DNA from: Thermoanaerobaculia bacterium
Lineage (GTDB): Bacteria; Acidobacteriota; Thermoanaerobaculia; Gp7-AA8
DNA: 64,000 bases
Direction: 5' to 3'
NCBI GenBank assembly: GCA_035629865.1
Contig: DASPHC010000082.1
Coordinates: 12,158 to 76,157, forward strand
Shown: one piece after another, positions 1 through 60,071 of the stretch
Layout of the letters: each line of letters starts with the position of its first letter
Position numbering within the stretch: the stretch's first letter is position 1
Program-made: the position numbers and the translations under genes
The notes under the pieces: generated by a model
What the model was told of the DNA's origin: nothing
Database searches by the model: none
Seen by the model: the letters and a program-made list of their open reading frames with translations, nothing else

Positions 1-498
1 CCAGGCCACGCCGTAGCTGCCGGCGATGCCGACCAGCGAGGCGATAAGGATGATGACCACGCGGGCCGCGTCGAAGTGACGCAGGAACCCGAAGTAGACC
101 ACCATGATGGCCCCGATGAAGAGCTCCAGCAGGAGGATGAACTTTCCCTGCGTGACCAGGTAGGTCTTGCAGGTCTCGTAGATCAGCTCCGAGATCTCGC
201 GCATGGAGCTGTGGACGGGCAGGTTCTTGAGCTGCGTGTACATCATCAGGCCGAACAGCAGGCCGAAGACGCACACGATCAAACCGCCCAGGAGCAGGCG
301 ATCCCCGCCCATTCCGAGGAACTGCACACTGCCGAGATCCGGCAGAACGAGATCGGCCTCCGAACGATGCTCGGTGGTTGCGACCGCGGGGTCGGACGAC
401 GTTAGTGGTGCCTGTTCCTCCTGCGCCGCGGCAATCCCGACGAACGAGAGAGTGCCGATCAGCGCCGCGAGCAGGACGCGCATGTACCAGGACTTCAT
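1..498 (-). CDS. hppA: Membrane H+/Na+-translocating pyrophosphatase, N-terminal 166 codons (gene continues past left edge)
   Basis: The reverse complement of 1-498 is fully open and starts at ATG (496-498) with GGAGGA just upstream. It reads MKSWYMRVLLAALIG...NLPVHSSMREISELIYETCKTYLVTQGKFILLLELFIGAIMVVYFG...SLVGIAGSYGVAW, like M-PPase N-termini (M-x-E-I...E-x4-YL-x2-Q, then TM helices). It is not in the ORF track because it has no stop in the window. ORF 76..405 + is its antisense shadow. Confidence 0.65.
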   Translation of the reverse strand, partial: MKSWYMRVLLAALIGTLSFVGIAAAQEEQAPLTSSDPAVATTEHRSEADLVLPDLGSVQFLGMGGDRLLLGGLIVCVFGLLFGLMMYTQLKNLPVHSSMREISELIYETCKTYLVTQGKFILLLELFIGAIMVVYFGFLRHFDAARVVIILIASLVGIAGSYGVAW

Positions 499-574
499 GA
501 TTCCTCCGTGTTGGATGAAATGACCCAGTGGGGTTCGGGTCACTAAAGGCGCGCGGATTGTAGCAAAACGGTCA

Positions 575-673
575 AGAAGAGGGCAGAAGGCAGAGGGCAG
601 AGGGCAGAAGGCAGAAGTGGCGGACGCCACGGTCCTCCTTCTGCCCTCTGCCCTCTGCCCTCTGCCTTCTGCC
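575..673. repeat. Long inverted repeat; each arm is about 5 tandem heptamers GGCAGAR (or complement)
   Basis: 575-617 aagaagagggcagaaggcagagggcagagggcagaaggcagaag pairs with 637-673 ccttctgccctctgccctctgccctctgccttctgcc. The loop contains a mini-hairpin, gtggcg-ga-cgccac. The right arm ends 1 nt before the minus-strand TAA (674-676) of the GAF gene. Confidence 0.9.
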
Positions 674-2050
674 TTATCTCTCGACCAGTTCCAGGTCGGC
701 GCCGATCTCGAGCTGGAACTTGCCTCGGCCGGTCGAGGCGATCCGGATGTCGGCGCACTTTTCCCGGAGGCGGTGGCGCAGGAGGATCAGGCGGCTCTCG
801 AGGTTGTCCTTGATCTCCGGGAGGCCGAGGCTCTTGTCGAGGCGGAGCTCGCGGTTGGTGAAGGTGGTGCGGCCCTGGCGTTTCCACTCGTCGAGCAGCT
901 TCCAGAGGATGCGGCCGGGAACATTGCGGATCAGGTATTCGTTGTCGAGAAAGACGGCGTCGTCTTCCCTGTAATAGATCAGTGTCCGGCGGGGACGCTT
1001 CGGGGCGACGGCGGCCGGCGGCCGCGCGGCGGGCCTGGCCTCGGCGGCTACGACCGGCTCGTCGGCTTCCAGGACGCGGTCGATGCCGAGGGCGATCTGG
1101 TTGCCGATGATGTCGAGATAGGCCTGGTCCCATTCGCCGAAGGCCATCGGGTCGCGGCTCTCGGCGGCCAGGACGCCGATCAGGCGGTCCTCCACGGAGA
1201 GCGGAATCACGATCGCGCTCTGGGCGTCGGGGAGGCCGGGGAGCGGGATCTCGGGACGTGCCCCTTTGCCGCCGCCGGAGAGGACGGAGCGGCGGACGGC
1301 GCGTCCGTATCGGAGGCTCTCGTCGAGACCGGTGATGCGCAGCACGCGGCGCTCGCGCGCGACGGTACCGATCAGCCCATCGCCCATCGCCACCTCCGCG
1401 CCGACCCCGCCGCCGTAGCCGTGGCAGGCGGTGGTGACGAGGCGCCCGGCCTGCTCGTCCGTCTCTTTTTCATGCAGCAGGACGATGGTGTGCTCGAAGC
1501 CGAAGTAGACGGCGAGGGCGTCGAGGGTCGCGGCGAGCAGCGTCTCCAGGTCGTCGGCCCGGTTGATCCGCTCGGAAACGAGCTGCAATCCGCGCAACTC
1601 CGTCCGGAGGCCACCGACCGAGACTTCCTCGTGGACCGGGGCCTCGGTCTGGGTGAGGAAGCCTTCGACCTTCTGGGCGCTGACGACTTCGAAGACGTCG
1701 GCCGCAATCAGACGGAACACGCCTTCCATCCCGGTGTGGGAGGCGATGGCCTGGATGCGCATGGCCATGCTGTCGAAGAGCGGCCCTTTCGCTTCCGAGC
1801 GGAGGAAGCGCAACCGGAGCCGGTAGGCCTGCATGGTCAGCGGATCCCACACCTCGACCGCCGCGTTCGGGTTCTCGTCGAGGTTCCGGCGGGTCTTGTT
1901 GAAGAACTGGCAGGAGAGAGCGACGTGGTTGTCGTCGACCAGGTAGACGTGGCTGACGTAGGTGATGTTCGGCATCCCCCCGGCGTCGGCGGTGGCGGCG
2001 ATGCTCGGGACGACGCCCTGGAAGCAGCGGGCGATCTCGGAGAGCTTCAT
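674..2050 (-). CDS. Regulator-like protein: PNPOx-like split barrel + GAF-like domain + OmpR/PhoB-type winged helix
   Basis: 458-aa ORF. N-term NITYVSHVYLVDDNHVALSCQFFNKTRRNLDENPNAAVEVWD fits the PNPOx-family pattern. The middle, FGFEHTIVLL...GLIGTVARERRVLRI...IGVLAAES, is GAF-like. C-term VFLDNEYLIRNVPGRILWKLL...RLILLRHRLREK...GRGKFQLE is winged-helix-like. ATGA overlap (2047-2050) with the upstream gene. Confidence 0.8.
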   Translation of the reverse strand: MKLSEIARCFQGVVPSIAATADAGGMPNITYVSHVYLVDDNHVALSCQFFNKTRRNLDENPNAAVEVWDPLTMQAYRLRLRFLRSEAKGPLFDSMAMRIQAIASHTGMEGVFRLIAADVFEVVSAQKVEGFLTQTEAPVHEEVSVGGLRTELRGLQLVSERINRADDLETLLAATLDALAVYFGFEHTIVLLHEKETDEQAGRLVTTACHGYGGGVGAEVAMGDGLIGTVARERRVLRITGLDESLRYGRAVRRSVLSGGGKGARPEIPLPGLPDAQSAIVIPLSVEDRLIGVLAAESRDPMAFGEWDQAYLDIIGNQIALGIDRVLEADEPVVAAEARPAARPPAAVAPKRPRRTLIYYREDDAVFLDNEYLIRNVPGRILWKLLDEWKRQGRTTFTNRELRLDKSLGLPEIKDNLESRLILLRHRLREKCADIRIASTGRGKFQLEIGADLELVER

Positions 2051-2505
2051 GAAAGCGGCTCTCCCGCCTTCGGGCCGGGGGTCTGGTCGAATACCGCCTC
2101 GACCGAGATGTCGATGGCGAAGGCCGGCCAGTGGGCGATCCGGCGCGTGATGTGGCGGGGCAGGCCGATGGTGTCGAGCACCTCGGCGAACTGTTCGAGC
2201 CGCTCCCGGACGAACCCCTCGTCGGCGGCGGGGGCGAGGCGCACCCCGCGGGTCAGGCCTTTGATCTGGATGGTCTCGTGCGAGAGGGGATGGGAGCAGG
2301 TGACCGCCAGCCGGTGTGTCGTGGCGACGTTGGCGACCGTCTCCTGCGCCGTGGCCGCGGGGAGGAAGACGGTGACGGTGTCGAAGTCGTCTTTGGTCCG
2401 GATGGCGATGCCGCGGCAGCAGGTGGGGATCCCGTCCGCGTCGACGCTGCCGACCACGACGGATACCCCACCGACCGCATAGTTCTGGAGCTTTCCCCGG
2501 GACAT
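2047..2505 (-). CDS. Small PNPOx-like (split-barrel flavin-binding family) protein
   Basis: ORF 2047..2592. I prefer the internal ATG at 2505 (MSRGKLQNYAVGGVSVVVGSVDADGIP...) because the first 29 codons run through the GTTGTCG hairpin repeat. Translationally coupled to the GAF gene. Confidence 0.6.
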   Translation of the reverse strand: MSRGKLQNYAVGGVSVVVGSVDADGIPTCCRGIAIRTKDDFDTVTVFLPAATAQETVANVATTHRLAVTCSHPLSHETIQIKGLTRGVRLAPAADEGFVRERLEQFAEVLDTIGLPRHITRRIAHWPAFAIDISVEAVFDQTPGPKAGEPLS

Positions 2506-2539
2506 GTCTCGGGGGGATTTTAGGATCTTTTTAGGAAAA

Positions 2540-2601
2540 CCGTTGTCGGTTTCAGTTGTGCGCTGCCGATTCGGACAACTGACAACCGACAACGGACAAC
2601 C
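2540..2601. repeat. Hairpin with GTTGTCG-type heptamer arms
   Basis: 2540-2562 ccgttgtcggtttcagttgtgcg versus 2572-2595 cggacaactgacaaccgacaacgg, with loop ctgccgatt. Confidence 0.85.
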
Positions 2602-2621
2602 TTCCGGCGAGATCCGTTGGA

Positions 2622-3818
2622 CTAAAGCGAAAGTTTCAACATCACCGGCTCTTCCAGCTTCTCGTCGAGCCAGATGGTGTGGTCTTCGTTGAACGACCGC
2701 AGGCCGGGGTTGGCGATGAAGTAGTAGTCGTTGCCGGCGACGGTGCCGGTGGTGGGGATCTCGAAGAGGGCGTTCTTCGACTCGAGGATCTCGACCTGGC
2801 CGCTCTCCGGGCGGACGCGGATGACGCGCGCCTTGCCGATGGCGTTCTGGATGCCGATCAGGGAGCCGTTGTGGACGGAAAGGCCGTCGATGCCGTTGAG
2901 GAGGGACTTCGACTCGATCCGTGTCCGGGCTTTCGTCGCCAGGTCGAAGCGGTGGATGCCGCGGAAGTCGGCGACGTAGAGGGTGCGCTCGTCCTCGGAG
3001 ACGGCAATGCCGTTGGGGTATTGGAGCTCGCTCGCCCAGATCTCGAGGGTATCGGCGCCCGGGGCGAGCCGGACGACGTTGCTCCGGCCCATGTCGGTGG
3101 CGAAGAGGGAACCGTCGGCCAGGAGGGTCAGATCGTTGAGCCGGCCGGGCGTGGCGACGACCTTCTTCACCAGCCGGCCGTCGCGGAGGTCGTACGCGGC
3201 GAGCATCGAGGCGTGCTCCGCGCCGGGGGTGAAGCCGCGCATCTCCTCGGTGGTGCTGCTGATGACCCAGAGAAGGCGGCGCTTCGTGTCGACTTTCACG
3301 CCGAGGCCACCGTACATGCCGTCCTGCCCCTCGGACACGAAGTCCCTGGCGCGGCCGTCGCGCGTGACCCGCAGCACTTTGCGGCGGTAGATCCCGCTGA
3401 CGTAGAAGACGTCGTCGACCGGGTCGTACGCGATCCCCTCCGGGACGAGGTCACGGTAGCCGGCGAGGGTGAACGCCGGGCGGGCTTTGTCGACCCGCGG
3501 CTCGCGCTTTTCCAGCCGGGACACGATGTCGCGAAACGCGCGGGTATTGGTGTTGCGGAAGTCGATCGGACTGACGCCGTGCTCCCACCCCAGCTCGTCG
3601 AGCCGCTCGAGCCACTTCACCACGCTCGCGTGGTCGTGGGCGCGGTCGTGGTAGGACGCCAGGAGGTAGATCCACGGGGTGTGGGTGGGCTGCTGCGCGA
3701 TGGCGTCGGTGAGGCCTTTGATCGCGTTTTGCGTCGCTTCATCGACGGTGGCCGGCGGCGGCGGAACGCTCTGGCAGGCGAGGACGACGAGGAGCGCGAA
3801 CAGACCGAGGCGTTTCAT
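2622..3818 (-). CDS. Secreted lipoprotein with a probable six-bladed beta-propeller (SMP-30/gluconolactonase/strictosidine-synthase-like)
   Basis: 398-aa ORF. Lipobox-like signal MKRLGLFALLVVLAC. Repeated blade-like segments (PEGIAYDP..VFYVS, LWVISS, LNDLTLLADGSLFATD, YPNGIAVSEDERTLYVAD, GIDGLSV). The family call is tentative. Confidence 0.6.
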   Translation of the reverse strand: MKRLGLFALLVVLACQSVPPPPATVDEATQNAIKGLTDAIAQQPTHTPWIYLLASYHDRAHDHASVVKWLERLDELGWEHGVSPIDFRNTNTRAFRDIVSRLEKREPRVDKARPAFTLAGYRDLVPEGIAYDPVDDVFYVSGIYRRKVLRVTRDGRARDFVSEGQDGMYGGLGVKVDTKRRLLWVISSTTEEMRGFTPGAEHASMLAAYDLRDGRLVKKVVATPGRLNDLTLLADGSLFATDMGRSNVVRLAPGADTLEIWASELQYPNGIAVSEDERTLYVADFRGIHRFDLATKARTRIESKSLLNGIDGLSVHNGSLIGIQNAIGKARVIRVRPESGQVEILESKNALFEIPTTGTVAGNDYYFIANPGLRSFNEDHTIWLDEKLEEPVMLKLSL

Positions 3819-3882
3819 GGTGTCCGGGAGGGTAAATGCTCCCGCGGCCGGACGGGGATCTCGTCATCGAATCGTTGCAGCC

Positions 3883-3947
3883 ATGGGACCTATAGGACAA
3901 ATGGGGTGGGCGGGGCCTCATAGGTCCCATAGGTCCATTCGTCCCAT
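3883..3947. repeat. Inverted repeat built from 9-mers ATGGGACNN / ATAGGACNN
   Basis: 3883-3909 atgggacct ataggacaa atggggtgg; centre gcggggcct; 3919-3947 cataggtcc cataggtcc attcgtccc at (the complement orientation of the same unit). Confidence 0.8.
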
Positions 3948-3963
3948 CGCCCGAAGGCAACTG

Positions 3964-3987
3964 CAGGGCCGCCTTGCGGCGGCCCTG
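3964..3987 (-). terminator. GC-rich hairpin just downstream of the ompA-like gene stop (no clear U-tract)
   Basis: cagggccgcc-ttgc-ggcggccctg, a 10-bp perfect stem 7 nt after the minus-strand stop at 3994-3996. Confidence 0.45.
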
Positions 3988-3993
3988 GATGCC

Positions 3994-4677
3994 TTACTGC
4001 GCCGAGGCCTGTTGCGGGGCCTGGATGTGGATCTCGACGCGGCGGTTGGCCTGACGGCCTTCCGCGGTGTCGTTCGAGGACTTCGGACGGGCTTCGCCGA
4101 AGCCGTAGACGGTGACGCTGCCGGCGGTGACGCCCTGGTCGATCAGGTAGTCGGCGACCGCGGAGGCGCGTTGCTCGGAGAGGCGCTGGTTGTGCGAATC
4201 CGTGCCGGTTGAGTCGGTGTGCCCTTCGACGATGAGACGGTTGTCGGGGTACTGGCGGAAGTTCCCGGCGAGCTCGTTGAGCGTCGTGCGGGACGTGCCG
4301 CGCAGCGCGGACGAGTTGACGTCGAAGAGGATGTCGTTGGTGAGGCGGACCGAGATCTCCCCTTCCGACGGACGGGTGACTTCGACCCCTTCGATCTGAC
4401 GGAGCTCCTGTTCCTGCTTGTCCATGCGCCGGCCGGCGGCGGCGCCGATGGCCGCGCCCGTCGCGGCGCCGATGACCGCGCCCGTACGGTTGCTGCCCGA
4501 CTGGTTGCCGATGACGGCGCCGGCGACGCCGCCGATCACGGCACCGATGACGGCACCGCGCTTGGTCTTCTTGTTCGGGTCATCCGACGAGCCGGAGCCT
4601 GAATCGGTGGTGGCGCAGGCAAAGGTGAATGCTGCGATGAGTACGAGGATCAGAGTCTTGCGAAACATGCTGTTCAA
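3994..4677 (-). CDS. OmpA-family lipoprotein with glycine-zipper region
   Basis: 227 aa. Signal plus Cys (LIAAFTFAC). Gly-zipper GAVIGAVIGGVAGAVIGN...GAVIGAATGAAIGAAAG. OmpA C-terminal signature GHTDSTGTDSHNQRLSEQRASAVADYL...ANRRVEI. Confidence 0.9.
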   Translation of the reverse strand: MNSMFRKTLILVLIAAFTFACATTDSGSGSSDDPNKKTKRGAVIGAVIGGVAGAVIGNQSGSNRTGAVIGAATGAAIGAAAGRRMDKQEQELRQIEGVEVTRPSEGEISVRLTNDILFDVNSSALRGTSRTTLNELAGNFRQYPDNRLIVEGHTDSTGTDSHNQRLSEQRASAVADYLIDQGVTAGSVTVYGFGEARPKSSNDTAEGRQANRRVEIHIQAPQQASAQ

Positions 4678-4699
4678 AACAACCTCCTAAGGTCACTGA

Positions 4700-4731
4700 A
4701 ACGAAAAACGACGCTCGTCTCCGAGCGTCGT
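4700..4731 (-). terminator. Rho-independent terminator of the second ompA-like gene
   Basis: The minus strand reads acgacgctcg-gaga-cgagcgtcgt followed by tttttcgtttc. Stem at 4708-4717/4722-4731, T-tract at 4700-4708. Confidence 0.8.
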
Positions 4732-4837
4732 AGATTCAACATTGGTACCGACCGGCACGGCCGGCTGCGCTGGTTGCCCAAGGCTGGGGCACGAGTGGCG
4801 CCAGTCCGTAGGCTCTGAGCTGGGAATCCATGATCAT

Positions 4838-5485
4838 TTACGCGTTCGCCCGGACGTAGATCTCGACCCGGCGGTTGCGCTGGCGGCCGCTGGAGGTGTC
4901 GTTCCCCGACTTGGGGCGGGACTCGCCGTAGCCGACCGCGTCGATACGCGAGCTGCTGACACCGTTTGCGTCCAGGTAGTTGGCTACCGAGCTGGCCCGG
5001 CGATTCGACAGGCGCTGGTTGTACGAGGAGGTACCGACCGAGTCCGTGTGGCCGGCGACCACGATGGTGGTGTCGCCGTAGCGGTCAAACACGTCTGCCA
5101 TCTCGCGCAGCTCGTCGCGGGAGCTGGAGCGGAGGGAAGCCGAGTTGAAGTCGAACAGGATCTCGTTCCGCATGGTGACCTTGAGCTCGTCTTCATCCGT
5201 ACGGGTGACGTCGATGCCTTCGATCTGGCGGAGCTCACGCTCCTGTTTGTCCATCATGTGGCCGACGATCGCGCCGGTGGCTGCACCGACGGCACCGCCG
5301 ATGACCGCGCCGCGCTTGGCGTTCCCCGAGCCGCGGTTGTTGTGGATGATGGCTCCGGCGATCGCACCGGCCACGCCGCCGATGACGGCGCCTTTCTTGG
5401 TCTTGTCGCGGGTGGTTGCCACATCCGCGGCGAACGCGGTGGTCGCCATGAGGGCGATGAGCAGGCTGGCGATGAACTGTTTCAT
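4838..5485 (-). CDS. OmpA-family protein with glycine-zipper region (paralogue of 3994-4677)
   Basis: 215 aa. Signal peptide MKQFIASLLIALMATTAFA. GAVIGGVAGAIAGAII...GAVIGGAVGAATGAIVG. GHTDSVGTSSYNQRLSNRRASSVANYL...RNRRVEI. AAGGAG RBS upstream. Confidence 0.9.
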   Translation of the reverse strand: MKQFIASLLIALMATTAFAADVATTRDKTKKGAVIGGVAGAIAGAIIHNNRGSGNAKRGAVIGGAVGAATGAIVGHMMDKQERELRQIEGIDVTRTDEDELKVTMRNEILFDFNSASLRSSSRDELREMADVFDRYGDTTIVVAGHTDSVGTSSYNQRLSNRRASSVANYLDANGVSSSRIDAVGYGESRPKSGNDTSSGRQRNRRVEIYVRANA

Positions 5486-5519
5486 TGGCTGTCTCCTTGT
5501 GTTGTCCTGGTCTCCACTA

Positions 5520-5536
5520 TCGCAACCGGGCTGCCA
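5520..5536 (-). promoter_or_regulatory. Sigma-54-type -24/-12 promoter-like element upstream of ompA-like gene 4838-5485
   Basis: The minus strand reads TGGCAG-cccgg-TTGCGA (consensus TGGCAC-N5-TTGCW), about 35 nt upstream of the ATG at 5485. Confidence 0.4.
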
Positions 5537-5585
5537 CGTCGCGAATAACTATGGAGGAAAAGCGGCGCCGACAGTTCGTAGCCGG

Positions 5586-6713
5586 GTGTACCATCCTTCC
5601 GTGCCGGCCGACCGAACTCTGCGGGATGAACTTCGTAACCTATTGCAATACGGAGACTTGAGCTTCCGCGACTTCGTCGAGCTGGCCCTCTACCATCCCC
5701 AGTTCGGGTACTACAGCCGAGCTGCAAATCCGGTCGGAAAGGTGGCGGATTACATCACCGGACCCTCGCTCAGCCCGGCATTTCCCTTCGCCATCGCCGA
5801 GCTCTTCGGCGAGTTTGTGCGCCGCTGCGAGGGCGAGGTGTACACGTTTGTGGACATCGGCTGCGGGGATGGCGGGCTGGTGCGGGAGGTTGCCGCACAG
5901 ATCCAGGATGAAAATGCGCGGTTCTTCGGCGTCGACCGCGCCCTCGACCGCGCCCTTCGCCAGAGCAATGATGAAGGCATCTCCTTCGTGCGCACCCTCG
6001 ACGAGGTTCCCCGCGACGGCGCCCACTTCCTCTTCTCCAACGAGCTCTACGACGCCCTTCCCTTTGCCCGCCTCGTCCAGCGGGGGGAGCATCTGCACGA
6101 GCTTTGGGTGACCGAGCGCGACGGAACGCTCGACTGGAGCGAGCATGAAGCCCCTCCGGTGTACGACGACTACTTCGCCGAGCGGGGGATTGTGCTGGCC
6201 GAGGGGCAGTTCGCCGATCTGTCGCTGGAGTGGGAGGCGTACCACGAAGACGTCCTCCGCTTCTTCGACCGCGCCCTCGCCGTCACCATCGATTATGGAT
6301 ATCCCCAGGAGAAGCTCTTCCACTCCCGGGCGCGGCGCTTCGGAACGGCGGCCGCGTATTCGCGGCAGCGGGTCCATCGCGATCTCCTGGCCGACCCGGG
6401 GGAGCAGGACCTGACCGCCCACGTCAACTTCACCGATCTGGAGCGGGCGGGGAGCCGCCAGGGGGCGAAGACGCTCTTCTTCGACGTCCTCGCCAAGTTC
6501 CTTCTCTCCGTCGGAATCACCCGGCATGAGCTCTTTCGGCCGGTGCACGAGGTGGGGATCGAGACGGCGGACGAAGGGCTGCAACTCATTCAGGCGCGGG
6601 AGGATGCACGCAGGCTGGTGCTTCCCGACGGGCTCGGGGTGGAGCAGCGGGTGCTGGTGCAGGGGAAGAACGTTCCGCGGGACGGCTGGTCGTTCCGGCA
6701 GGAGCTTTTCTAA
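5586..6713 (+). CDS. MidA/NDUFAF7-family class I SAM-dependent methyltransferase (DUF185)
   Basis: The ORF is open from 5145, but its first ~147 codons are antisense to the ompA-like gene. The likely start is GTG 5586 or GTG 5601. FRDFVELALYHPQFGYYS...DYITGPSLSPAF...FVDIGCGDGGL...SNELYDALPF...TIDYGY...DLTAHVNFT are typical of the MidA family. Confidence 0.8.
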   Translation: MYHPSVPADRTLRDELRNLLQYGDLSFRDFVELALYHPQFGYYSRAANPVGKVADYITGPSLSPAFPFAIAELFGEFVRRCEGEVYTFVDIGCGDGGLVREVAAQIQDENARFFGVDRALDRALRQSNDEGISFVRTLDEVPRDGAHFLFSNELYDALPFARLVQRGEHLHELWVTERDGTLDWSEHEAPPVYDDYFAERGIVLAEGQFADLSLEWEAYHEDVLRFFDRALAVTIDYGYPQEKLFHSRARRFGTAAAYSRQRVHRDLLADPGEQDLTAHVNFTDLERAGSRQGAKTLFFDVLAKFLLSVGITRHELFRPVHEVGIETADEGLQLIQAREDARRLVLPDGLGVEQRVLVQGKNVPRDGWSFRQELF

Positions 6714-6730
6714 CCGTTCGTTTTTGTCCG

Positions 6731-6758
6731 TTGACTCTGACTTGGGGCAGTCTACAAT
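6731..6758 (+). promoter_or_regulatory. Sigma-70-like promoter of the nuo operon
   Basis: TTGACT (6731-6736) - 16 nt - TACAAT (6753-6758), 33 nt before the nuoA ATG. Confidence 0.6.
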
Positions 6759-6790
6759 TGCGCCGGTTCTTCAACCTCAGCGAGCAAAAG

Positions 6791-7150
6791 ATGGCAAATT
6801 ACTCGGTGCTTCTGGTAGCCGCGCTCATCGTGCTGTCAGTACCAGTTTTGACACTTTTTATCCTTGCGCCGCTGATCCGCGCATCGCGGCCGGGCAAGGT
6901 GAAGCTCGAGCCTTATGAATGCGGGATCGCGGCAACCTCGCTGGCTTTCGATCACCGCTTCTCGGTCCGCTACTTCCTGATCGCGGTCCTCTTCATCATC
7001 TTCGACGTGGAGACGGTGTTCCTCTTCCCCTGGGCGATCCGCTTCAAGCAGCTCGGCCTGTTCGGAGCTGTCGAGATGGCAATCTTCCTCGCGATCCTGC
7101 TGGTCGGTTACTTCTATGCCTGGAAGAGGAAGGTTCTTACATGGGTCTGA
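6791..7150 (+). CDS. nuoA: NADH-quinone oxidoreductase subunit A
   Basis: Internal ATG 6791 of ORF 6731..7150. 119 aa, 3 TM. PYECG and [14 protein letters not shown] motifs. Confidence 0.95.
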
Positions 7151-8163
7151 TCGAGAACCGCTTCGAGTCGAACGTTCTCACCTCGACCGTCGACAAGTTC
7201 TTCAATTGGGCGCGTAAATCCTCTCTCTGGCCGATGCAGTTCGGCCTGGCCTGCTGTGCCATCGAGATGATGGCCGTGCTCGACCCGCGGCACGACATGG
7301 CCCGCTTCGGCGCCGAGGTCTTCCGCGCCACTCCCCGTCAGGCCGACCTGATGATCGTCTCCGGGACGGTCACCGAGAAGATGGCTCCGATCGTCCGCCG
7401 CCTGTGGGACCAGATGCCCGATCCGAAGTGGGTGATCGCCATGGGCTCGTGCGCCACCTGCGGCGGCCCGTACGACACTTACGCCGTGACCCAGGGAGTC
7501 GACCGGCTGGTTCCGGTCGACGTCTACATCCCCGGCTGCCCCCCACGCCCCGAGGCGCTGATCTGGGGGCTGATGGAGCTCCAGAAGAAGATCGAGAAGA
7601 TGCACATCCTGCGGAAGGGCGGCGAGGCGTACGACTTCGCGCGCGCCGCGGTGCGCGACACCCTCCGGCCGGCCCACGAAGGTCCGGCGCTGCGCGCCGA
7701 ACAGGCCGCCCAGCTCAAGCAGGCGCCGATCTCGGGCGTCAAGCGCGCTCCCTCCGCTCCGGCGGCGGCGAAGCCGAAGGCGGCTCCCGCGGCGGTGGCC
7801 GAGGCTCCGGTCGAAGGCGACGTCTCCCAGGCCGAGCTCGAACAGGCTGCCGCACCCGAAGTGCTCCCGGGAGAAGAGACGGACGGCGCATCTCCTGCCG
7901 CCCCGTTCCATCGCGACGATCTGATGCTCACCGAGCGCATGCAGATGGCGGACGAGATGGGCGGCAAGTGGGAGACCAAGCTCTTCGCGGCGATGGCCCA
8001 GACCGACTGCGGCGCCTGCGGCTGGGACTGCGAAGGCTACGCAGACGCCATCGCCTCCGGCGAGACCGACGACATCTCACTCTGCGTCCCCGGCGAGTCG
8101 GAGACGCTGGACATGCTGGAAGCGTTGATGAAGGAAAAGGGGAGGACGTACTCGGGGGTGTAG
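7141..8163 (+). CDS. nuoB: NADH-quinone oxidoreductase subunit B with long C-terminal extension ending in an RnfB-type Fe-S domain
   Basis: ATG 7141 within ORF 6919..8163, overlapping the nuoA end. Core motifs are [18 protein letters not shown] and IPGCPPRPE. The core is followed by an Ala/Pro-rich linker and the tail [33 protein letters not shown]. Confidence 0.95.
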
Positions 8164-8166
8164 AGA

Positions 8167-8372
8167 TTGTTGTCGGTTGTCGGTTGTCCGAAACCTGTTT
8201 GGCCTGGGCGGCAGGCCTGGCGGGAACCGACAGGGTTTCAGGTGCCTGCGTTCTTTTGCCGTTGCTGTTTGCTGATTGTTGATGTGGTCTGGGTTGTCCC
8301 GCGTTGGTTATCCGTAAGTCTTCGCTCGGGCGAGGCCGGTTCGGACAACCGACAACCGGCAACCGACAACCC
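8167..8372. repeat. Long-range inverted repeat (GTTGTCG heptamer arms) enclosing a structured ~140-nt insert
   Basis: 8167-8195 ttgttgtcggttgtcggttgtccgaaacc versus 8338-8372 ggttcggacaaccgacaaccggcaaccgacaacc. Inner hairpins: gaaacctgt...acagggtttc (8190-8239) and ggcctg-ggcgg-caggcc (8201-8217). Confidence 0.8.
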
Positions 8373-8399
8373 CCTCGGCAACCGGGAACCAGCAACAGA

Positions 8400-9266
8400 A
8401 TGTCAGAGTTAACTCCGCCGAGCTCACCTCCACCTGCGGCGGCGCCTGCGGCGCCCGCGGCGCGCAGCGTCGACGAGATCAAACGCGATCCGCTGGTTGC
8501 GGCCGCGGTGTCGCGCGTGAGCGATGCGATCACCGGGGCGAGGGAGATGGTCGGCGAGATCACGCTCTTCGTCGAGCGCGACCGCATCGTCGATGTCTGC
8601 CGCGCCTTCAAGAGCGACGGCTTCGTCTATCTCGTCGACCTGGCCGGCGTCGACTATTCGAAGTTCCCGAACCACACCGGCCCGCGCTTCAGCGTCGCCT
8701 ACATGCTCTACTCGTTCGCCAGGAACGCGCGGGTGCGGCTGCGGGTCTGGACCGGCGACGGCGAGCCGGTGCCGTCCGTGACCTCGGTCTGGAAGACGGC
8801 CAACTGGCACGAGCGCGAGACCTTCGACATGCTCGGCATCACCTTCACCGGCCACCCGAACCTCGAGCGCATCCTGATGTGGGAAGGCTTCAACGGCTTC
8901 CCGCTGCGCAAAGACTTCCCGATCCGCGGTATCGACACCGGTGCGCGCATCTACCCGGAAGTCTTCCCCGAAGGGGGCGGTCCGAAGGCGGGATCGACCG
9001 GCAAGGACGTCAAGGACGTCAATGTCTACAAGGGCGAATGGAAGCGCTACGGCACCTGGCCTGCCGCGCAGATCGGCGGCGGCAATGGTGCGAAAGCGCC
9101 GGCGAAACCGGCCGCTCCTGCAGCGAAGCCGGTAGCCGCGGTCGCTCCGGCAGCTGCGCCGGAACCGGCGCCTGCGCCTGAACCGGAACCGGCGCCTGCA
9201 CCTGAACCGGAACCGGCGCCTGCACCTGAAGTGGAGACGGAGACGGAGGACGATACAGATGCTTGA
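8400..9266 (+). CDS. nuoC: NADH-quinone oxidoreductase subunit C with Pro/Ala/Glu-rich C-terminal tail
   Basis: ATG 8400 within ORF 8304..9266 (upstream codons lie in the repeat). [24 protein letters not shown] signature. The tail [24 protein letters not shown] is encoded by short tandem DNA repeats. Confidence 0.9.
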
Positions 9267-10374: not shown

Positions 10375-10378
10375 TGAG

Positions 10379-10460
10379 GAAATGCAAAATGCAAAATGCA
10401 AAATGCGAAATTGAAAACCGTTTTTTCATTTTGCATTCTGCATTTTGCATTTTGCATTTC
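10379..10460. repeat. AT-rich hairpin with arms of tandem heptamer AATGCAA
   Basis: 10379-10417 gaaatgcaaaatgcaaaatgcaaaatgcgaaattgaaaa versus 10423-10460 ttttcattttgcattctgcattttgcattttgcatttc. Confidence 0.9.
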
Positions 10461-10489
10461 GATGCTGCGGCGGTGTCGGAGGGACGCGC

Positions 10490-12149: not shown

Positions 12150-12152
12150 GTC

Positions 12153-12821: not shown

Positions 12822-12824
12822 GTT

Positions 12825-12923
12825 GAAGGGCCGAGGGCCGAGGGCCAAGGGCCGAGGGGAAGGCCCGGTCGCGCCCACATCTGCTGCTTCTCCCTCGGCC
12901 CTCGGCCCTCGGCCCTCGGCCCT
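12825..12923. repeat. Hairpin with arms of tandem heptamer GGGCCGA
   Basis: 12825-12860 gaagggccgagggccgagggccaagggccgagggga versus 12891-12923 tccctcggccctcggccctcggccctcggccct, with a ~30-nt loop. Confidence 0.9.
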
Positions 12924-12940
12924 GCGCCCCGGAGGTGCGA

Positions 12941-13243
12941 ATGCCCAGCACTGAAGCCTACCTCATGCTCTCCGGCACCCTCTTCGCCGTCGGGCTGATC
13001 GGCGTGATCGTCCGGCGGAACATGATCACCGTGCTGATGTCGATCGAGCTGATGCTCAACGCCGTCAACATCAACCTGGTCGCCTTCTCCCACCGCCTGG
13101 CCAACCTGGAAGGGCAGGTCTTCACGATCTTCGTCATCTGCATCGCCGCCGGCGAGGCCGCGGTCGGGCTGGCGATCATCATCCAGTTGTACCGGCTGCG
13201 CAGCACCGTGAATGTCGACGAGGTGAGGACGCTGAATGGATAA
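12941..13243 (+). CDS. nuoK: NADH-quinone oxidoreductase subunit K
   Basis: ATG 12941, 5 nt after GGAGG (12931-12935). The track ORF starts at GTG 12935. ND4L-like: [19 protein letters not shown]. Confidence 0.9.
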
Positions 13244-33734: not shown

Positions 33735-33820
33735 ACAGGACTGACAGGACCTACAGGACAGAGCAGGTTTCCCCCGCCCGAGCCCGCCCTATTGGTCCTA
33801 CCAGTCCTATCGGTCCTATT
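33735..33820. repeat. Imperfect inverted repeat of 9-mers ACAGGACNN / complement of ATAGGACNN
   Basis: 33735-33761 acaggactg acaggacct acaggacag; 33791-33817 attggtcct accagtcct atcggtcct. Ends 3 nt before the wzt ATG. Confidence 0.75.
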
Positions 33821-41881: not shown

Positions 41882-41917
41882 ATGGGACTGATGGGACCTA
41901 TGGGACTGATGGGACTT
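41882..41917 (+). repeat. Four direct 9-mers ATGGGACNN (single arm, no partner)
   Basis: atgggactg atgggacct atgggactg atgggactt. Confidence 0.85.
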
Positions 41918-49944: not shown

Positions 49945-50029
<85 letters not shown>

Positions 50030-56369: not shown

Positions 56370-59231
56370 ATGTCCAATCAGCCGCTCGGTCCCTATGTGA
56401 TCGGTGAACGTGTCGGTTCCTCGGTCTGGCTGGCCGAGGACACGCGCAACGGGAAGAGGGTCGCGATCAAGCTGCTGACCAAGCAGCTTCCGAAAGAGCA
56501 GGCCAAGCGCGACGCACTGATCCGCGACGTGCGCATCTCCGCGGCGCTCTATCACGCATTCCTCGTCCCGATCCTCGAGATCGCGCCGGTCGGCGACAAC
56601 CTCCTCATGGTCATGGAAGTCCTCGACGCCCAGAGCATCACGCGCAAGCTGCGCGGACAGCCGCTGGCGCGTCCCGAGTTCTTCCGCCTCTCCTACCAGC
56701 TCGCGAGCGTCGTGAAGTACCTGCACATGAAGAACATCCTCCACGGGAACATCAACGGCGACGCCGTGATGGTCACCCCCGAGGGGCAGGTGAAGCTGGG
56801 AGGCCTCAACCTCGCCAACCTGCTGCGCCGCGAGAACACCTCCACCGCCTACCAGCAGAAAGGGAGCGACGCCCGCAGCGTCGCCTACATGGCGCCCGAG
56901 CAGATCGCCACGCAGATGATGGAGGACAAGACCGACATCTTCTCGATCGGCGTCGTCCTCTACGAGATCGCCACCGGCAAGCTACCGTTCGCCGGCACCA
57001 CCGCTCCCGACATCGCGCGTGCCATCGTCGAGGGCAACCCCTCCTCGCCGAAGAGCTACAACCCGGACATCGAGAATCCGGTCCTGAACCTCCTCGGCGC
57101 CTGTCTCTTCAAGGACTCGTTCAAGCGGACCAAGGATGCGAAGGCGCTGGTCGAGATGATCGAGCGTTTCGACTCCGACTCCGTCGCGTTCGCGAACAAC
57201 CTCGAGAAGAAGATCATCGCTCCCTCTTCTTCGACGACCGAACATCGCCGCTCGATCCTCTTCATCGCCGACGTCGCGAATTACGATGCCCTCGCCGCGG
57301 AGGACGCAGACGCGGCGGCAAAGGCGGCGGCGCGGATGCAGCAGATCCTCGGCGAGTCGGTCTATCTGTTCGACGGGAAGGTCATCGACCCGTTCGGCAC
57401 GCGCATGGTGGCGGAGCTGCCGAACGTCGAGGCCGCGCTCGAGGCGGGACGGAAAGGAGAGTTCGATTTCTCCGGCGCCCAGCAGGACAACGGCGGCCTG
57501 GAGGTGCGGATGCTCCTCCACGCCGGCGATTTCGAGTTGCGCGACGGCACGCCTGTCGGCCCGTCGATCGAGAGGGCCGTGGAGACGCTCCGGCAGCTCA
57601 CGCCGAACACGCTCTTCATCACCGAGGAGTTCGTGAAGGAAGGGCGCGGGCACGTCCGCCTGCGTGATGCCGGCGCGCGTGCCGGGATGAAGCTCTACAC
57701 CATCGTCGCGCCGGAGCCGACGCCGGTCGCCGACACGTCGGTCGAGCCGTCGACCGCGGAGCTCGAAGCCGAGGCGGCGGCGGAAGCGGAAGCCGAGATC
57801 GCCGCGCTGGCGGCGCAGGCGAGGAAGCGGCGGACGATGCTCGCCGCCGTGGCCGCGGTGATCGTCGTCCTTCTCACCGGCGCGGTGCTGATGTGGATGC
57901 GGCGCGGCAGCGAGCCGGTCCCGGTGGCGACGAATACCGTGGCGCCGGTACCTACGGGCGCGACCGCGGAGCATCCGGCCAGGATCCATATCGCCCCGTT
58001 CACCGTCAGCGCGCCCGATCCCCTCATGGCCGAGCGCGCGAATGCGATCCGCCTCGGCGCGATCGAGATCCTGCGCAGCTATCCCGAACTGCAGATCGTC
58101 GAAAGCGACGGTCCAGACGCCGTGCCGTTCGGCGCGCAGGTGCGTGCCGGCGCCGCCGGTCCGGAGATCATCGCCACCTCGGGTGCGAAGACCTCGCAAC
58201 CGGCGGCATTGCTCGACGCCGCGAGCGGCATCCGGGCGATGGTGCAGTGGATCACCGCCGAGGTCCAGGCACCGGCGCGCACGTATACGGTGGCCGAGGC
58301 GCTGAACGCCTTCGCCGATGCCGCGGTCGCGCGGTCCGTCAACGACGTCACGCGCGCCGAGGCTTCGCTCCAGGCCGCGATCCAGGCCGACCCGCGTTTC
58401 CTCCCCGCGCAACTGATGGCCATGGACGTCTTCAGCAAGAACGGCAGGGAAGCCGACGCCGTGAACGCGGCGAAGCAGGTGGTGGCCATCGACCCGCGGA
58501 ACCTCGCCGCCGCGCGCAAAGTCGCGCGGGCGAGCATGGTCAGCGGCGACCTGCAGCAGTCCTTCGCCTTCTGGGAGATGGTGCTGAAGCGCGAGCCGGC
58601 CGACGCCGAGGCGCTCAATCACGTGGCCCGCTACGCGGTCGCGGCCGGCGACTCAGCAAAATTCAACGGCACGCTGACGAGGCTCAACGCCGTGCCGCGC
58701 GGCCAGATCGAGGCCCACGAGCCCGACGCCATCGCCGCCGCCGGCCGTATCGACGTCGCGGTCCAACGCTATTACACCGTTGAAGAGACGGCCCCCGATA
58801 ACCCGGCGCTGGCGCTGAAGATCGGCCGGCTGGCCGTGCTGCGCCACTCCCTGGGCGTCGCCGAAGCCGAGCTGGCGAAGCTCGCCAAGAGCGACCCTCT
58901 CTACGGCTACCACATGCTCCGCGCCTACATCGCCGCCGAAAAGAAAGACCGCGCCGGGGCGATGCAGGCCCTCGAGACCGCCATCAGCGCCGCGCAGGCG
59001 GGCGACGACTCCTGGACCTCGGCCGCCGAGATCCACGCCATCCTCGACGACACCGACGGCCTCCTCGCCGCCCTCGACAAAGCTGCCAAACGCAAAGAGC
59101 CCACCGCCGCCTATGTTCTCGCCCACCCTCTCTTCCGCTACCTCGGCAGCGACCCCCGCTTTCAGGCGCTGCAGACGAAGCTCGGCGAACAGCAGGCGGA
59201 GATTCGCACGGCGCTGGGGCAGGTGAAGTAG
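56370..59231 (+). CDS. Membrane protein: Ser/Thr-kinase-like (predicted pseudokinase) + class III cyclase-like domain + TM + TPR region
   Basis: ATG 56370 within ORF 56127..59231 (upstream codons lie in the REP element). VAIKLL and YMAPEQ are kept, but HRDLKPxN is HGNINGDA and DFG is LGG. Middle RRSILFIADVANYDAL...MLLHAGDFELRDG. TM MLAAVAAVIVVLLTGAVLMWM. C-terminal TPR-like helices. Confidence 0.8.
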   Translation: MSNQPLGPYVIGERVGSSVWLAEDTRNGKRVAIKLLTKQLPKEQAKRDALIRDVRISAALYHAFLVPILEIAPVGDNLLMVMEVLDAQSITRKLRGQPLARPEFFRLSYQLASVVKYLHMKNILHGNINGDAVMVTPEGQVKLGGLNLANLLRRENTSTAYQQKGSDARSVAYMAPEQIATQMMEDKTDIFSIGVVLYEIATGKLPFAGTTAPDIARAIVEGNPSSPKSYNPDIENPVLNLLGACLFKDSFKRTKDAKALVEMIERFDSDSVAFANNLEKKIIAPSSSTTEHRRSILFIADVANYDALAAEDADAAAKAAARMQQILGESVYLFDGKVIDPFGTRMVAELPNVEAALEAGRKGEFDFSGAQQDNGGLEVRMLLHAGDFELRDGTPVGPSIERAVETLRQLTPNTLFITEEFVKEGRGHVRLRDAGARAGMKLYTIVAPEPTPVADTSVEPSTAELEAEAAAEAEAEIAALAAQARKRRTMLAAVAAVIVVLLTGAVLMWMRRGSEPVPVATNTVAPVPTGATAEHPARIHIAPFTVSAPDPLMAERANAIRLGAIEILRSYPELQIVESDGPDAVPFGAQVRAGAAGPEIIATSGAKTSQPAALLDAASGIRAMVQWITAEVQAPARTYTVAEALNAFADAAVARSVNDVTRAEASLQAAIQADPRFLPAQLMAMDVFSKNGREADAVNAAKQVVAIDPRNLAAARKVARASMVSGDLQQSFAFWEMVLKREPADAEALNHVARYAVAAGDSAKFNGTLTRLNAVPRGQIEAHEPDAIAAAGRIDVAVQRYYTVEETAPDNPALALKIGRLAVLRHSLGVAEAELAKLAKSDPLYGYHMLRAYIAAEKKDRAGAMQALETAISAAQAGDDSWTSAAEIHAILDDTDGLLAALDKAAKRKEPTAAYVLAHPLFRYLGSDPRFQALQTKLGEQQAEIRTALGQVK

Positions 59232-59306
59232 TAGTTGCTGTTGCTGGTTCCTGGTGGCTCTTCGTCGAGGCGTAACCGCACAAGCAACCAGCAACCAGAA
59301 ACTACT
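59228..59306. repeat. Hairpin with GTTGCTG-type arms spanning two convergent stop codons
   Basis: 59228-59257 gtagtagttgctgttgctggttcctggtgg versus 59276-59305 ccgcacaagcaaccagcaaccagaaactac. Confidence 0.8.
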
Positions 59307-60035: not shown

Positions 60036-60071
60036 TTGGTTGTCGGTTGTCCGTTGTCGGTTGTCCGAACC
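60036..60071 (+). repeat. Single arm of GTTGTCG/GTTGTCC heptamers
   Basis: ttggttgtcggttgtccgttgtcggttgtccgaacc. The last 19 nt are nearly identical to 8176-8195. Confidence 0.8.

What the first reader, a model, noticed from the sequence alone, without database searches (positions are those of the whole stretch)
575..673. Class of very long intergenic hairpins whose arms are tandem heptamers (first example GGCAGAR x5)
Seen directly: 575-617 and 637-673 are reverse complements (~36-bp stem), and each arm is itself a tandem array of GGCAGAA/GGCAGAG. The same architecture (n x short unit, loop, n x complementary unit) recurs at 2540-2601, 3883-3947, 8167-8372, 10379-10460, 12825-12923, 33735-33820 and 59228-59306. 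The unit differs between sites (GTTGTCG, ATGGGACNN, AATGCAA, GGGCCGA, GTTGCTG). Shared architecture without shared sequence is not how ordinary REP or MITE copies look, and the stems are several times longer than intrinsic terminators. All copies are intergenic and often touch a stop or start codon. Because the arms are periodic, the helix could slip in register by one unit. They also explain odd low-complexity ORFs in the track (PSALCPLPSAL, GQRAEGRGQRAEG, MQNAKCKMQNAKC). Function is unknown. Candidates are RNase III-type processing or 3'-end stabiliser sites, terminators, or a self-propagating slipped-strand product.
Basis: seen in the sequence. Interest (0 to 1): 0.65.

Follow-up and report, generated by a model that had tools for sequence, protein, structure and literature searches.

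The report
Hairpins built from tandem 7-base repeats
The long intergenic hairpins are real: they are inverted pairs of 7-base microsatellite arrays, a partly known and still unexplained kind of bacterial repeat, here filling the gaps between operon genes in a soil Acidobacterium.

Summary
The window comes from an Acidobacteriota genome of class Thermoanaerobaculia, sampled from soil. It holds four strong hairpins with heptamer-array arms (575-676, 8167-8396, 10379-10460, 12825-12929). It also holds four weaker ones, two of them built from 9-mers, and two unpaired arrays. Shuffled sequence gives about 0.05 such hairpins.

Three hairpins lie inside the nuo operon. They start 4-5 nt after a stop codon, have no U-tract, and are not terminators.

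The same period-7 design recurs in nuo loci of other Acidobacteriota and Chloroflexota and in viral contigs, but not in the proteobacterial loci. It is chiral: the 5' arm is G-rich and C-poor in 30 of 35 informative cases.

Related genomes keep a hairpin in the same spacer while unit, copy number and loop change, or they lack it.

Units are not free-form. They recur at several sites per genome, share junctions, and lean to a nnKTCAG consensus.

Sense and antisense strands fold equally well, which points to upkeep at the DNA level.

Closest known are the convergent GGGAATC heptamer pairs of Xanthomonas and the heptamer repeats of cyanobacteria and Beggiatoaceae.

Best reading: self-renewing palindromic heptamer microsatellites, tolerated because the RNA stem brings stop and start codons together. 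Function is untested.

The parts
575..676 (-). Hairpin 1. 5' arm 578-617 and 3' arm 638-675, GGCAGAR x5-6, loop 618-637. It directly abuts the TAA stop (674-676) of the GAF-domain gene and lies 77 nt upstream of the H+-pyrophosphatase start (498).
   Evidence: (-89.4 kcal/mol, z -11.8)
2540..2601 (-). Hairpin 2, short and degenerate, GTTGTCG family. It lies between the SGL-lactonase gene stop (2622) and the next gene's start (2506).
   Evidence: (z -5.2)
3883..3947 (-). Hairpin 3, made of degenerate 9-mers (ATGGGACNN). It lies between the OmpA-like gene stop (3994) and the SGL gene start (3818).
   Evidence: z -3.6
8167..8396 (+). Hairpin 4 in the nuoB|nuoC spacer. 5' arm 8169-8192 (GTTGTCG x3), structured 147-nt loop, 3' arm 8340-8371, then older degenerate units 8372-8396 that end 3 nt before the nuoC ATG (8400). 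The stop of nuoB is at 8161-8163.
   Evidence: a ~91%-identical relative in run X2 lacks 8163-8377
10379..10460 (+). Hairpin 5 in the nuoD|nuoH spacer. AAATGCA x4.6 / TGCATTT x5.4. It starts 4 nt after the nuoD stop (10372-10374).
   Evidence: z -9.5
12825..12929 (+). Hairpin 6 in the nuoJ|nuoK spacer. AGGGCCG x4.6 / CCCTCGG x4.6. It starts 5 nt after the nuoJ stop (12819-12821). GGAGGTG and the nuoK ATG follow 17 nt later.
   Evidence: z -9.4
33735..33820 (+). Hairpin 7, degenerate 9-mers (ACAGGACNN / CTAYNGGTC). It lies between the PKD-repeat gene and the ABC/Wzt gene, and folds better on the antisense strand.
   Evidence: (z -3.8)
59228..59306 (+). Hairpin 8, GTTGCTG x2-3 / AGCAACC x3. It overlaps the TAG stop (59229-59231) of the Ser/Thr kinase gene.
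   Evidence: (z -2.9)
60036..60067 (+). Unpaired GGTTGTC x4 array 1 nt after the QueD-like gene stop. It is homologous to the 5' arm and junction of hairpins 2 and 4, and is read as a hairpin that has lost its 3' arm.
   Evidence: 94.6% to the reverse complement of 8335-8371
41882..41916 (.). Unpaired ATGGGACTG x4 array, the same 9-mer family as hairpin 3. It does not fold.

Best explanation
These are inverted pairs of heptanucleotide microsatellite arrays, that is, palindromic microsatellites. They belong to the same phenomenon as the over-represented intergenic heptamer repeats of many bacteria.

Shown here:
- Period 7 is specific.
- The two arms are reverse complements.
- The 5' arm is G-rich and C-poor.
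- Arrays cluster at about 31 nt.
- The element usually makes up the whole spacer between a stop codon and the next start codon.
- It persists at orthologous spacers while unit, copy number and loop turn over.
- It can lose one arm.

Inferred mechanism:
- Arrays gain and lose 7-nt units by replication slippage. Register-shifted helices are nearly as stable as the in-register one.
- The arms are created and kept Watson-Crick complementary by replication template switching within the palindrome.
- The structure therefore renews itself at the DNA level while its sequence drifts. Copies occasionally seed new sites.

Why it is tolerated (inferred): in the mRNA it folds into a stem of -30 to -90 kcal/mol whose base puts the upstream stop next to the downstream start. 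A ribosome terminating there melts the base of the stem and frees the next initiation region, so operon expression survives. Likely side effects are tight translational coupling, a barrier to 3' exonucleases, and an RNase III substrate.
For: - Period. Period 7 dominates the periods that are not multiples of 3: 14 arrays in the 64-kb window, 66 in 582 kb of Acidobacteriota loci, and 6 in 536 kb of mostly proteobacterial loci.
- Pairing. 27 inverted pairs in the nuoD loci and 37 after adding the nuoB loci.
- Chirality. G>C in the 5' arm in 30 of 35 cases, p = 2e-5. All partnered GTTGTCG arrays in viral contigs have the partner downstream: 5 by regex against 0 upstream.
- DNA-level upkeep. Across 28 hairpins of known transcription direction, the sense strand is more stable in 15 and the antisense in 13. 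G-U pairs number 81 against 87, p = 0.72.
- Turnover at orthologous spacers. nuoD|H carries AAATGCA (window), AAATTGA (L001) and AATGTTG (L003), and nothing in L002 or L005. nuoB|C carries GTTGTCG, GTTGCGA (L081) and GTTGCTG-like units (L001), with a shared outer arm CAGGAACCAGCAACA next to the nuoC ATG.
- Arm loss. An X2 relative lacks the 5' arm and loop.
- Origin in place. L081:7294-7393 is a heptamer hairpin inside an intact ORF, with only a 3-nt (one-codon) net length difference from the window: 147 against 144 nt.
- Anatomy. The stem base lies 0-12 nt from the stop and 2-20 nt from the start in most co-directional cases.
- Slipped registers. They stay at -60 to -75 kcal/mol.
- No dedicated site. 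Arrays occur at every nuo junction in some lineage.
- Literature. Template switching can create hairpins and homogenise inverted-repeat arms (PMC8794818, PMC8604942, PMC7202029). A slippage origin for heptamer SSRs has been proposed (cited in PMC4692102).
Against: - No +/-7 polymorphism was seen directly, because only unitigs were available.
- My test for mirrored order of variant units in the two arms was inconclusive. Arms can be very unequal: 2.9 against 13.7 units in L005 (sequence read).
- Copies at different loci share a unit, a junction or even a loop. Slippage plus template switching does not explain that; it needs some form of dispersal.
- The sharp length mode at 30-32 nt, the strict chirality and the nnKTCAG bias could instead reflect selection or a dedicated protein.
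- The translational-coupling step is pure inference.
- Why the period is 7 remains unexplained.
Confidence: 0.45

Rival explanations
1. They are selected RNA elements: intercistronic stem-loops that punctuate operons as RNase III processing sites, 3'-exonuclease barriers or translational couplers. The heptamer arrays are merely the easiest mutational route to a long stem.
For: - Stems are 20-38 bp and near-perfect.
- They sit flush with stop and start codons inside operons.
- The structure is kept while the sequence is replaced, at divergences where neutral sites should be saturated.
- The chirality puts the G-poor arm last and next to the start codon, which fits avoidance of Rho loading or of a structured leader (inference).
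- The length mode is near 31 nt.
- Most Xanthomonas heptamer repeats are transcribed (PMC4692102).
Against: - There is no sense-strand bias in stability or in G-U pairs.
- Close relatives do without them, with genes overlapping instead (L002, L005, L082).
- They occur at any nuo junction rather than at a conserved one.
- One lies inside an ORF.
- No transcript-end data exist.
Confidence: 0.25
2. They are small non-autonomous mobile elements, like REPINs, MITEs or foldback elements, whose inverted ends happen to be heptamer arrays. An enzyme encoded elsewhere moves them.
For: - The same unit occurs at several loci per genome. Two L033 copies share a homologous ~56-nt loop.
- The window's GTTGTCG copies share a junction.
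- Arm k-mers have a large excess depth in the metagenome.
- Presence and absence differ between relatives at exact gene junctions.
- A different palindromic element occupies the same nuoD|H spacer in L004.
Against: - There are no consistent target-site duplications at filled against empty sites (sequences).
- No transposase, RAYT or reverse transcriptase was found among about 40 window genes.
- Loops usually differ between copies with the same unit.
- Orthologous copies show gradual unit turnover.
- The intragenic case arose with almost no net insertion, 3 nt only.
Confidence: 0.17
3. The arrays are binding platforms for a protein that reads nucleic acid in a 7-nt register, such as cold-shock-domain proteins on the single-stranded 5' arm or a ribbon-helix-helix protein on duplex heptads. 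The protein competes with hairpin formation.
For: - The period is strictly 7 in several phyla.
- There is a loose shared unit consensus and TCAG enrichment.
- 5' arms are C-poor, G/T/A-rich heptamers.
- CspB binds one heptamer per molecule, as discussed in PMC4679880. The omega repressor binds 7-bp heptads in direct or inverted order (PMC4498918, seen as a search listing only, not read; the binding mode is from my own knowledge).
Against: - One 64-kb window holds at least five unrelated units, from AAATGCA to AGGGCCG, so a single sequence-specific binder is unlikely.
- No candidate gene is linked.
- Nothing here tests binding.
Confidence: 0.08
4. They are intrinsic transcription terminators, or they are assembly artefacts.
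For: They are long GC-rich stems after stop codons. Arm k-mers are repeated in the metagenome, which can confuse assemblers.
Against: - Three lie between co-transcribed nuo genes.
- None has a T-run, while a canonical terminator exists at 4731-4708.
- Unitigs of the source run cross whole hairpins without conflict.
- The class recurs in many independent assemblies.
Confidence: 0.03

Closest known systems
Convergent inverted pairs of GGGAATC heptamer repeats in Xanthomonas campestris / X. axonopodis pv. citri (Rehm et al. 2015, PMC4692102)
   Same: - Tandem 7-nt units, mostly about 4 copies.
- 70-75 cases of two nearby arrays on opposite strands in convergent orientation, able to form stem-loops.
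- Intergenic.
- 83% kept in the same gene context between species, with length changes.
- Mostly transcribed.
- The same G-rich-arm-first chirality as here.
   Different: - Xanthomonas has one G-tract unit, interpreted as a G-quadruplex former.
- Here there are at least five units per 64 kb, including A/T-rich ones that cannot form G4.
- The phylum differs.
- The stop-to-start bridging inside operons, the chirality statistics and the unit turnover were not described there.
Intergenic heptamer tandem repeats: cyanobacterial STRR and Nostoc heptamers, TAACTGA repeats of Beggiatoaceae (PMC4679880; bioRxiv 10.1101/2022.06.06.494920; survey in bioRxiv 10.1101/309039)
   Same: Period 7, intergenic, often ending within a few nt of a start codon, limited to certain lineages, function unknown. 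[quoted passage not shown] CTGA/TCAG-containing units are common in both.
   Different: Those are almost all direct, unpaired arrays: one inverted case among 170 sets in the Beggiatoaceae genome. Here at least half of the good arrays are inverted pairs.
REP / BIME / REPIN elements with RAYT transposases (PMC3116915, PMC2817692)
   Same: High-copy intergenic palindromes, often inverted doublets that form long hairpins after stop codons inside operons. They are known to stabilise upstream mRNA.
   Different: REPs share one conserved 20-40-nt sequence per family and are not tandem arrays. No RAYT was seen here, and unit sequences differ between sites.
Foldback transposons of Drosophila and bacterial MITEs (own knowledge)
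   Same: Inverted ends that are themselves tandem short repeats of variable number, around a variable middle.
   Different: Those are hundreds to thousands of bp long, with target-site duplications and a known transposase link. None of that was found here.
Intercistronic RNase III sites of phage T7 early mRNA, and intercistronic stabiliser hairpins such as malE-malF REP or the puf operon (own knowledge)
   Same: What it may work like: stable stems between cistrons of one transcript that set segment stability or separate the cistrons.
   Different: Those have defined internal loops and mapped cleavage or 3' ends. Nothing is mapped here, and there is no periodic arm structure there.

Membership tests
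Heptanucleotide simple-sequence repeats (STRR-type) | Head-to-tail repeats of exactly 7 nt, at least 3 copies | tested here: met
   TRF gives period 7 and 2.9-5.7 copies at 578-617, 640-673, 8169-8188, 8344-8371, 10380-10411, 10422-10459, 12827-12858 and 12892-12923.
Heptanucleotide simple-sequence repeats (STRR-type) | Period 7 over-represented against other periods that are not multiples of 3, in intergenic DNA | tested here: met
   The window has 14 arrays of period 7 against 1 of period 5 and none of periods 8, 10 or 11. All eight hairpins are intergenic.
Xanthomonas-type convergent heptamer pairs | Two nearby arrays of the same heptamer on opposite strands, with the G-rich arrays convergent | tested here: met
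   37 pairs in all; 5' arm G>C in 30 of 35.
Xanthomonas-type convergent heptamer pairs | Unit GGGAATC or another G-tract unit able to form a G-quadruplex | tested here: not met
   The units are GGCAGAR, GTTGTCG, AAATGCA and AGGGCCG. None is GGGAATC, and two have no GGG tract.
REP / REPIN | One conserved imperfect palindrome of 20-40 nt shared by all copies | tested here: not met
   Arms are arrays of different units at different sites. Only sub-families share sequence.
REP / REPIN | An associated RAYT (Y1 transposase) gene | tested here: inconclusive
   None among about 40 window genes scanned against Pfam. The rest of the genome is not available.
MITE / foldback element | Target-site duplication flanking the inverted ends | tested here: not met
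   No consistent flanking direct repeat at filled sites compared with empty orthologous sites (sequences). A single TCGATG pair at the window's nuoD|H site is not repeated elsewhere.
MITE / foldback element | Multiple copies with a homologous internal sequence | tested here: inconclusive
   Two L033 copies share their loop, and the window's GTTGTCG copies share only the junction. Most same-unit copies have unrelated loops.
Intrinsic terminator | Stem followed by a U-tract, at the end of a transcription unit | tested here: not met
   No heptamer hairpin is among the 15 terminator-like sites in 1-14000. Three lie inside the nuo operon.
Integron attC | RYYYAAC ... GTTRRRY core sites around an imperfect hairpin, downstream of a cassette, with an integrase nearby | tested here: not met
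   GTTGTCG does not fit GTTRRRY and lies in the 5' arm rather than the 3' arm (direct reading). The neighbours are nuo genes and no integrase was found.
RNase III substrate / mRNA stabiliser hairpin | Near-perfect double-stranded stem of at least 20 bp in a transcript | tested here: met
   Predicted stems of 24-38 bp. Transcription is inferred from the operon context only.
RNase III substrate / mRNA stabiliser hairpin | Mapped cleavage sites or 3' ends at the stem | not testable with these tools
   No RNA raw reads exist for the window, L003 or L033.
Any curated RNA family (Rfam 15) | Match at the gathering threshold | tested here: not met
   The only match in the window is a tRNA at 49945-50026.

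The most novel reading that the evidence does not exclude
Heptamer palindromes are not passive by-products. They would be the visible trace of a shared system spanning several phyla: Acidobacteriota, Chloroflexota, their phages, Xanthomonas and cyanobacteria. Under this reading, either a machinery with a 7-nt ruler writes and copies them, or they are a general form of 'operon punctuation' in which a chiral stem (G-rich arm first) lets ribosomes pass from stop to start and shields the transcript from Rho and from exonucleases. The strict period, the chirality, the ~31-nt arm mode and the nnKTCAG bias would then be design features.
Probability: 0.15. Interest if true: 0.8.

Novelty: new variant of a known kind. 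Interest (0 to 1): 0.55.

Why it matters
Tandem heptamers are reported as the most abundant intergenic periodic repeat in a wide range of prokaryotes, and nobody knows why (bioRxiv 10.1101/309039). This locus gives three things.
- A clean multi-unit case showing that the phenomenon does not depend on G-quadruplex potential.
- Three measurable regularities that any explanation must meet: chirality, a ~31-nt arm mode, and stop-to-start bridging.
- Orthologous series showing the structure kept while the sequence turns over.

If the DNA-level model holds, it is a natural bacterial example of template switching creating and maintaining long RNA hairpins. If the RNA-level model holds, it is a widespread and overlooked way of organising operon expression in soil phyla that are hard to culture. 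These repeats also generate spurious low-complexity ORFs and break short-read assemblies, which matters for MAG annotation.

Tried and rejected
- Exact-protein look-up of NuoD found no contig.
- The metagenome scan with NuoB gave only three useful relatives, L081-L083. Strain-level +/-7 polymorphism therefore could not be examined.
- RNA-run searches for the window, L003 and L033 found only one contig-level 'RNA?' run of a relative. Transcript ends could not be mapped.
- The permutation test for mirrored order of variant units in the two arms was underpowered and inconclusive.
- No consistent target-site duplication was found.
- The Rfam scan gave nothing.
- The terminator scan flagged none of the hairpins.
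- Pfam on about 40 genes found no transposase, RAYT or reverse transcriptase.
- A conserved functional site in the nuo operon was rejected, because arrays occur at every junction in some lineage.
- Stop codons in all three frames, as in TAACTGA, were considered as the reason for period 7. This was rejected for this window, because none of its four main units carries a stop triplet on the sense strand (direct reading).
- attC and V(D)J-type heptamers were rejected by sequence and context.

Full report
**1. What is there**

The window is 65% G+C. NuoD is 85-90% identical to that of MAGs labelled Thermoanaerobaculia, in Acidobacteriota. A soil metagenome, run X1, holds 97% of the sampled words.

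The first example is exactly as described. Arms 582-617 and 638-673 are 36 nt and 97% complementary around a 20-nt loop. Each is a GGCAGAR array of period 7. As RNA it folds at -89.4 kcal/mol, z = -11.8.

Three more sites are equally clear:
- 8169-8192 / 8340-8363, unit GTTGTCG, with a 147-nt loop.
- 10379-10460, unit AAATGCA.
- 12825-12929, unit AGGGCCG.

Four sites are weaker. 2540-2601 and 59228-59306 belong to the GTTGYYG type. 3883-3947 and 33735-33820 are built from degenerate 9-mers. Two arrays have no partner: 60036-60067 and 41882-41916.

My scan finds 5 periodic hairpins in the window, against 1 in twenty shuffles. Unitigs of the source run cross whole hairpins with no differences. 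The odd ORFs are translations of the arrays.

**2. Context**

The region is ordinary chromosome. It carries an H+-pyrophosphatase, a GAF protein, a lactonase, an OmpA-like protein, a Methyltransf_28 gene, nuoA-N, atpB/E and others. There is no transposase.

Three hairpins lie inside the nuo operon, at nuoB|C, nuoD|H and nuoJ|K. Their stems begin 4-5 nt after the stop codon. None has a T-run, and none is scored terminator-like, although a canonical terminator exists at 4731-4708. Rfam has no match.

**3. How widespread it is**

In 80 loci around nuoD, period 7 is the dominant period that is not a multiple of 3 in Acidobacteriota and Chloroflexota. It is rare in the mostly proteobacterial loci. 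I found 27 inverted pairs there and 37 after adding nuoB loci from metagenomes.

Thirty-three viral contigs carry (GTTGTCG)3. Several are hairpins, and the partner array always lies downstream.

Heptamer arrays occur at every nuo junction in some lineage, so no single site is special.

**4. Regularities**

(a) Chirality. The 5' arm is G>C in 30 pairs and G<C in 5, p = 2e-5. Base totals in 5' arms are G 364 and C 137. A palindrome reads the same on both strands, so this does not depend on gene direction. Pairs from one genome are not fully independent.

(b) Length. Arrays peak at 30-32 nt (48 of 205), and few exceed 35 nt.

(c) Position. In co-directional spacers the stem base lies 0-12 nt after the stop and often 2-8 nt before the next start, sometimes with no Shine-Dalgarno sequence outside the stem. 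In L146 the layout is TAA, hairpin, CAAT, ATG. L137, L033 and L028 are similar (the gene calls are crude).

(d) Units are not arbitrary. When 5'-arm units are aligned by rotation they give W-R-K-T-C-A-G, with 4.25 bits against 3.58 +/- 0.11 in shuffles. TCAG occurs in 10 of 72 non-redundant units against 1.8 expected.

(e) One-unit register shifts keep -60 to -75 kcal/mol in the first example.

**5. Evolution**

At nuoD|H the window has AAATGCA, L001 has AAATTGA and L003 has AATGTTG. L004 has a different palindromic element there. In L002 and L005 the genes overlap.

At nuoB|C the window (GTTGTCG, 147-nt loop), L081 (GTTGCGA, 6-nt loop) and L001 (GTTGCTG-like) share the outer arm CAGGAACCAGCAACA next to the nuoC ATG. 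This is one old hairpin whose units have turned over. L082 and L083 have TGATG with no spacer.

A relative about 91% identical, in run X2, lacks 8163-8377. That is the 5' arm, the loop and the inner 3' arm, which leaves a lone array. This probably explains lone arrays such as 60036-60067, which matches the reverse complement of 8335-8371 at 94.6%.

At nuoJ|K the window has AGGGCCG. L001 has AAATTGA there, the same unit as at its own nuoD|H site.

Within genomes, units recur. L033 has ATTTTGG at three sites, two of them with homologous loops. The window's three GTTGTCG copies share the junction GTTGTCCGAAnC. AAATGCA arms reach a depth of about 2300 against 11 in the source metagenome.

In L081 a heptamer hairpin (-52 kcal/mol) lies inside the intact Methyltransf_28 ORF. 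The segment is 147 nt against 144 nt in the window, a net difference of one codon. The design can therefore arise in place by conversion, without a large insertion.

**6. RNA or DNA**

For 28 hairpins of known transcription direction, the sense strand is the more stable in 15 and the antisense in 13. G-U pairs number 81 against 87, p = 0.72. Selection on the sense RNA that tolerated wobble pairs would leave an excess on the sense strand, and none is seen. Complementarity therefore looks maintained as Watson-Crick DNA. This is moderate evidence, not proof. Transcript ends could not be examined.

**7. Explanation**

I take these to be palindromic heptamer microsatellites.

Inferred steps:
- Arrays change by 7-nt slippage.
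- Arms are created and corrected by template switching within the palindrome, a mechanism known to create and maintain hairpins (PMC8794818, PMC8604942, PMC7202029).
- Copies occasionally seed other sites.
- Long palindromes are trimmed, which would give the length ceiling.

They are tolerated because the mRNA stem places the stop next to the start. A terminating ribosome would open the base of the stem and free the next initiation region. This matches the relatives that have overlapping genes instead.

The chirality may reflect selection: the G-poor arm comes last and is paired at once, so it offers no Rho loading site and leaves an unstructured leader once freed. It may instead reflect a bias of fold-back synthesis on G-rich nascent strands. 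I cannot tell which. Why the period is 7 is not explained. The polymerase-footprint idea cited in PMC4692102 is only a suggestion.

The rivals are selected RNA elements, small mobile elements, and platforms for a protein with a 7-nt register. All remain open and are scored in the report.

**8. Comparison with what is known**

Heptamer repeats are the commonest intergenic periodic repeat in prokaryotes, and their function is unknown.

In Xanthomonas there are 70-75 cases of GGGAATC arrays paired in convergent orientation close together. Their position is conserved between species while their length changes, and most are transcribed. That is the closest known case and shares the chirality. It differs in having one G-tract unit and a G-quadruplex interpretation, which cannot apply to AAATGCA or AAATTGA.

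The repeats of Beggiatoaceae and cyanobacteria are nearly all direct.

REP/REPIN, MITE, terminator, attC and Rfam membership each fail on at least one defining feature, as set out in the membership table.

**9. Verdict**

The feature is real and is a partly known kind in a new form and phylum, with new regularities. The mechanism is inferred and the function is untested. Interest is moderate to good.

Noticed in passing
window 42285-42595 and 20593-20740: Tandem arrays of 21-nt units (21 = 3 x 7), each holding a palindrome. One is GAATCAAAGCTTTGACTCnnn in about 15 copies; the other is AATCAGAGAATCTCTCATCGG in about 5-7 copies. The ORF over the first array (42275-42772, minus strand) has no Pfam match. 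They look like iteron-type binding arrays or a further repeat class.
   Followed up: partly
window 42784-43002 and 20789-21007 (shared motif 21030-21071 ~ 42962-43003): Two long imperfect inverted repeats, with 52-66-nt arms at 88-92% complementarity. Each lies about 200 nt from one of the 21-nt arrays. They share a 42-nt GGCCCGGCC...CTACAGATCT motif, which suggests a composite dispersed module present twice.
   Followed up: partly
window 60352-60528; L004:1326-1468: A palindromic MITE-like element with ends CTGTCATCCTGAGCC / GGCTCAGGATGACA and an inner GGCGAAGGAYCT. A member of the same family fills the nuoD|nuoH spacer of relative L004, exactly where the window has its AAATGCA hairpin.
   Followed up: partly
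L081:7294-7393 (orthologous to window 5853-5997): A heptamer hairpin (CGTTGCT x4 / AGCAACG x3, -52 kcal/mol) inside the in-frame coding sequence of the Methyltransf_28 gene, with only one extra codon relative to the window.
   Followed up: yes
window 41972-42106 and 56152-56289: A dispersed repeat, 76% identical over about 140 nt, lying in two intergenic regions.
   Followed up: no
all loci (W, L001-L160): Period-7 arrays have a sharp length mode at 30-32 nt (about 4.4 units, about three helical turns), and few exceed 35 nt. 5'-arm units lean to a nnKTCAG consensus, with TCAG in 10 of 72 units against 1.8 expected.
   Followed up: partly
window 6919-8163 and 5145-6713: NuoB carries a C-terminal extension of about 180 aa with a putative Fe-S domain (PF04060). 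A Methyltransf_28 gene sits just upstream of the nuo operon; from my own knowledge this Pfam family includes the complex I assembly factor NDUFAF7 (not tested here).
   Followed up: no
L005:1767-1928: A composite and very unequal hairpin: GATGGCA x2.9 plus GACGAGA x5.6 on the left, against GCCATCT/CTCTGCC x13.7 on the right. This is the same GGCAGAK unit family as the window's first example, but at a locus that is not syntenic with it.
   Followed up: partly
Such arrays may be filtered out as contamination in some pipelines.
   Followed up: no
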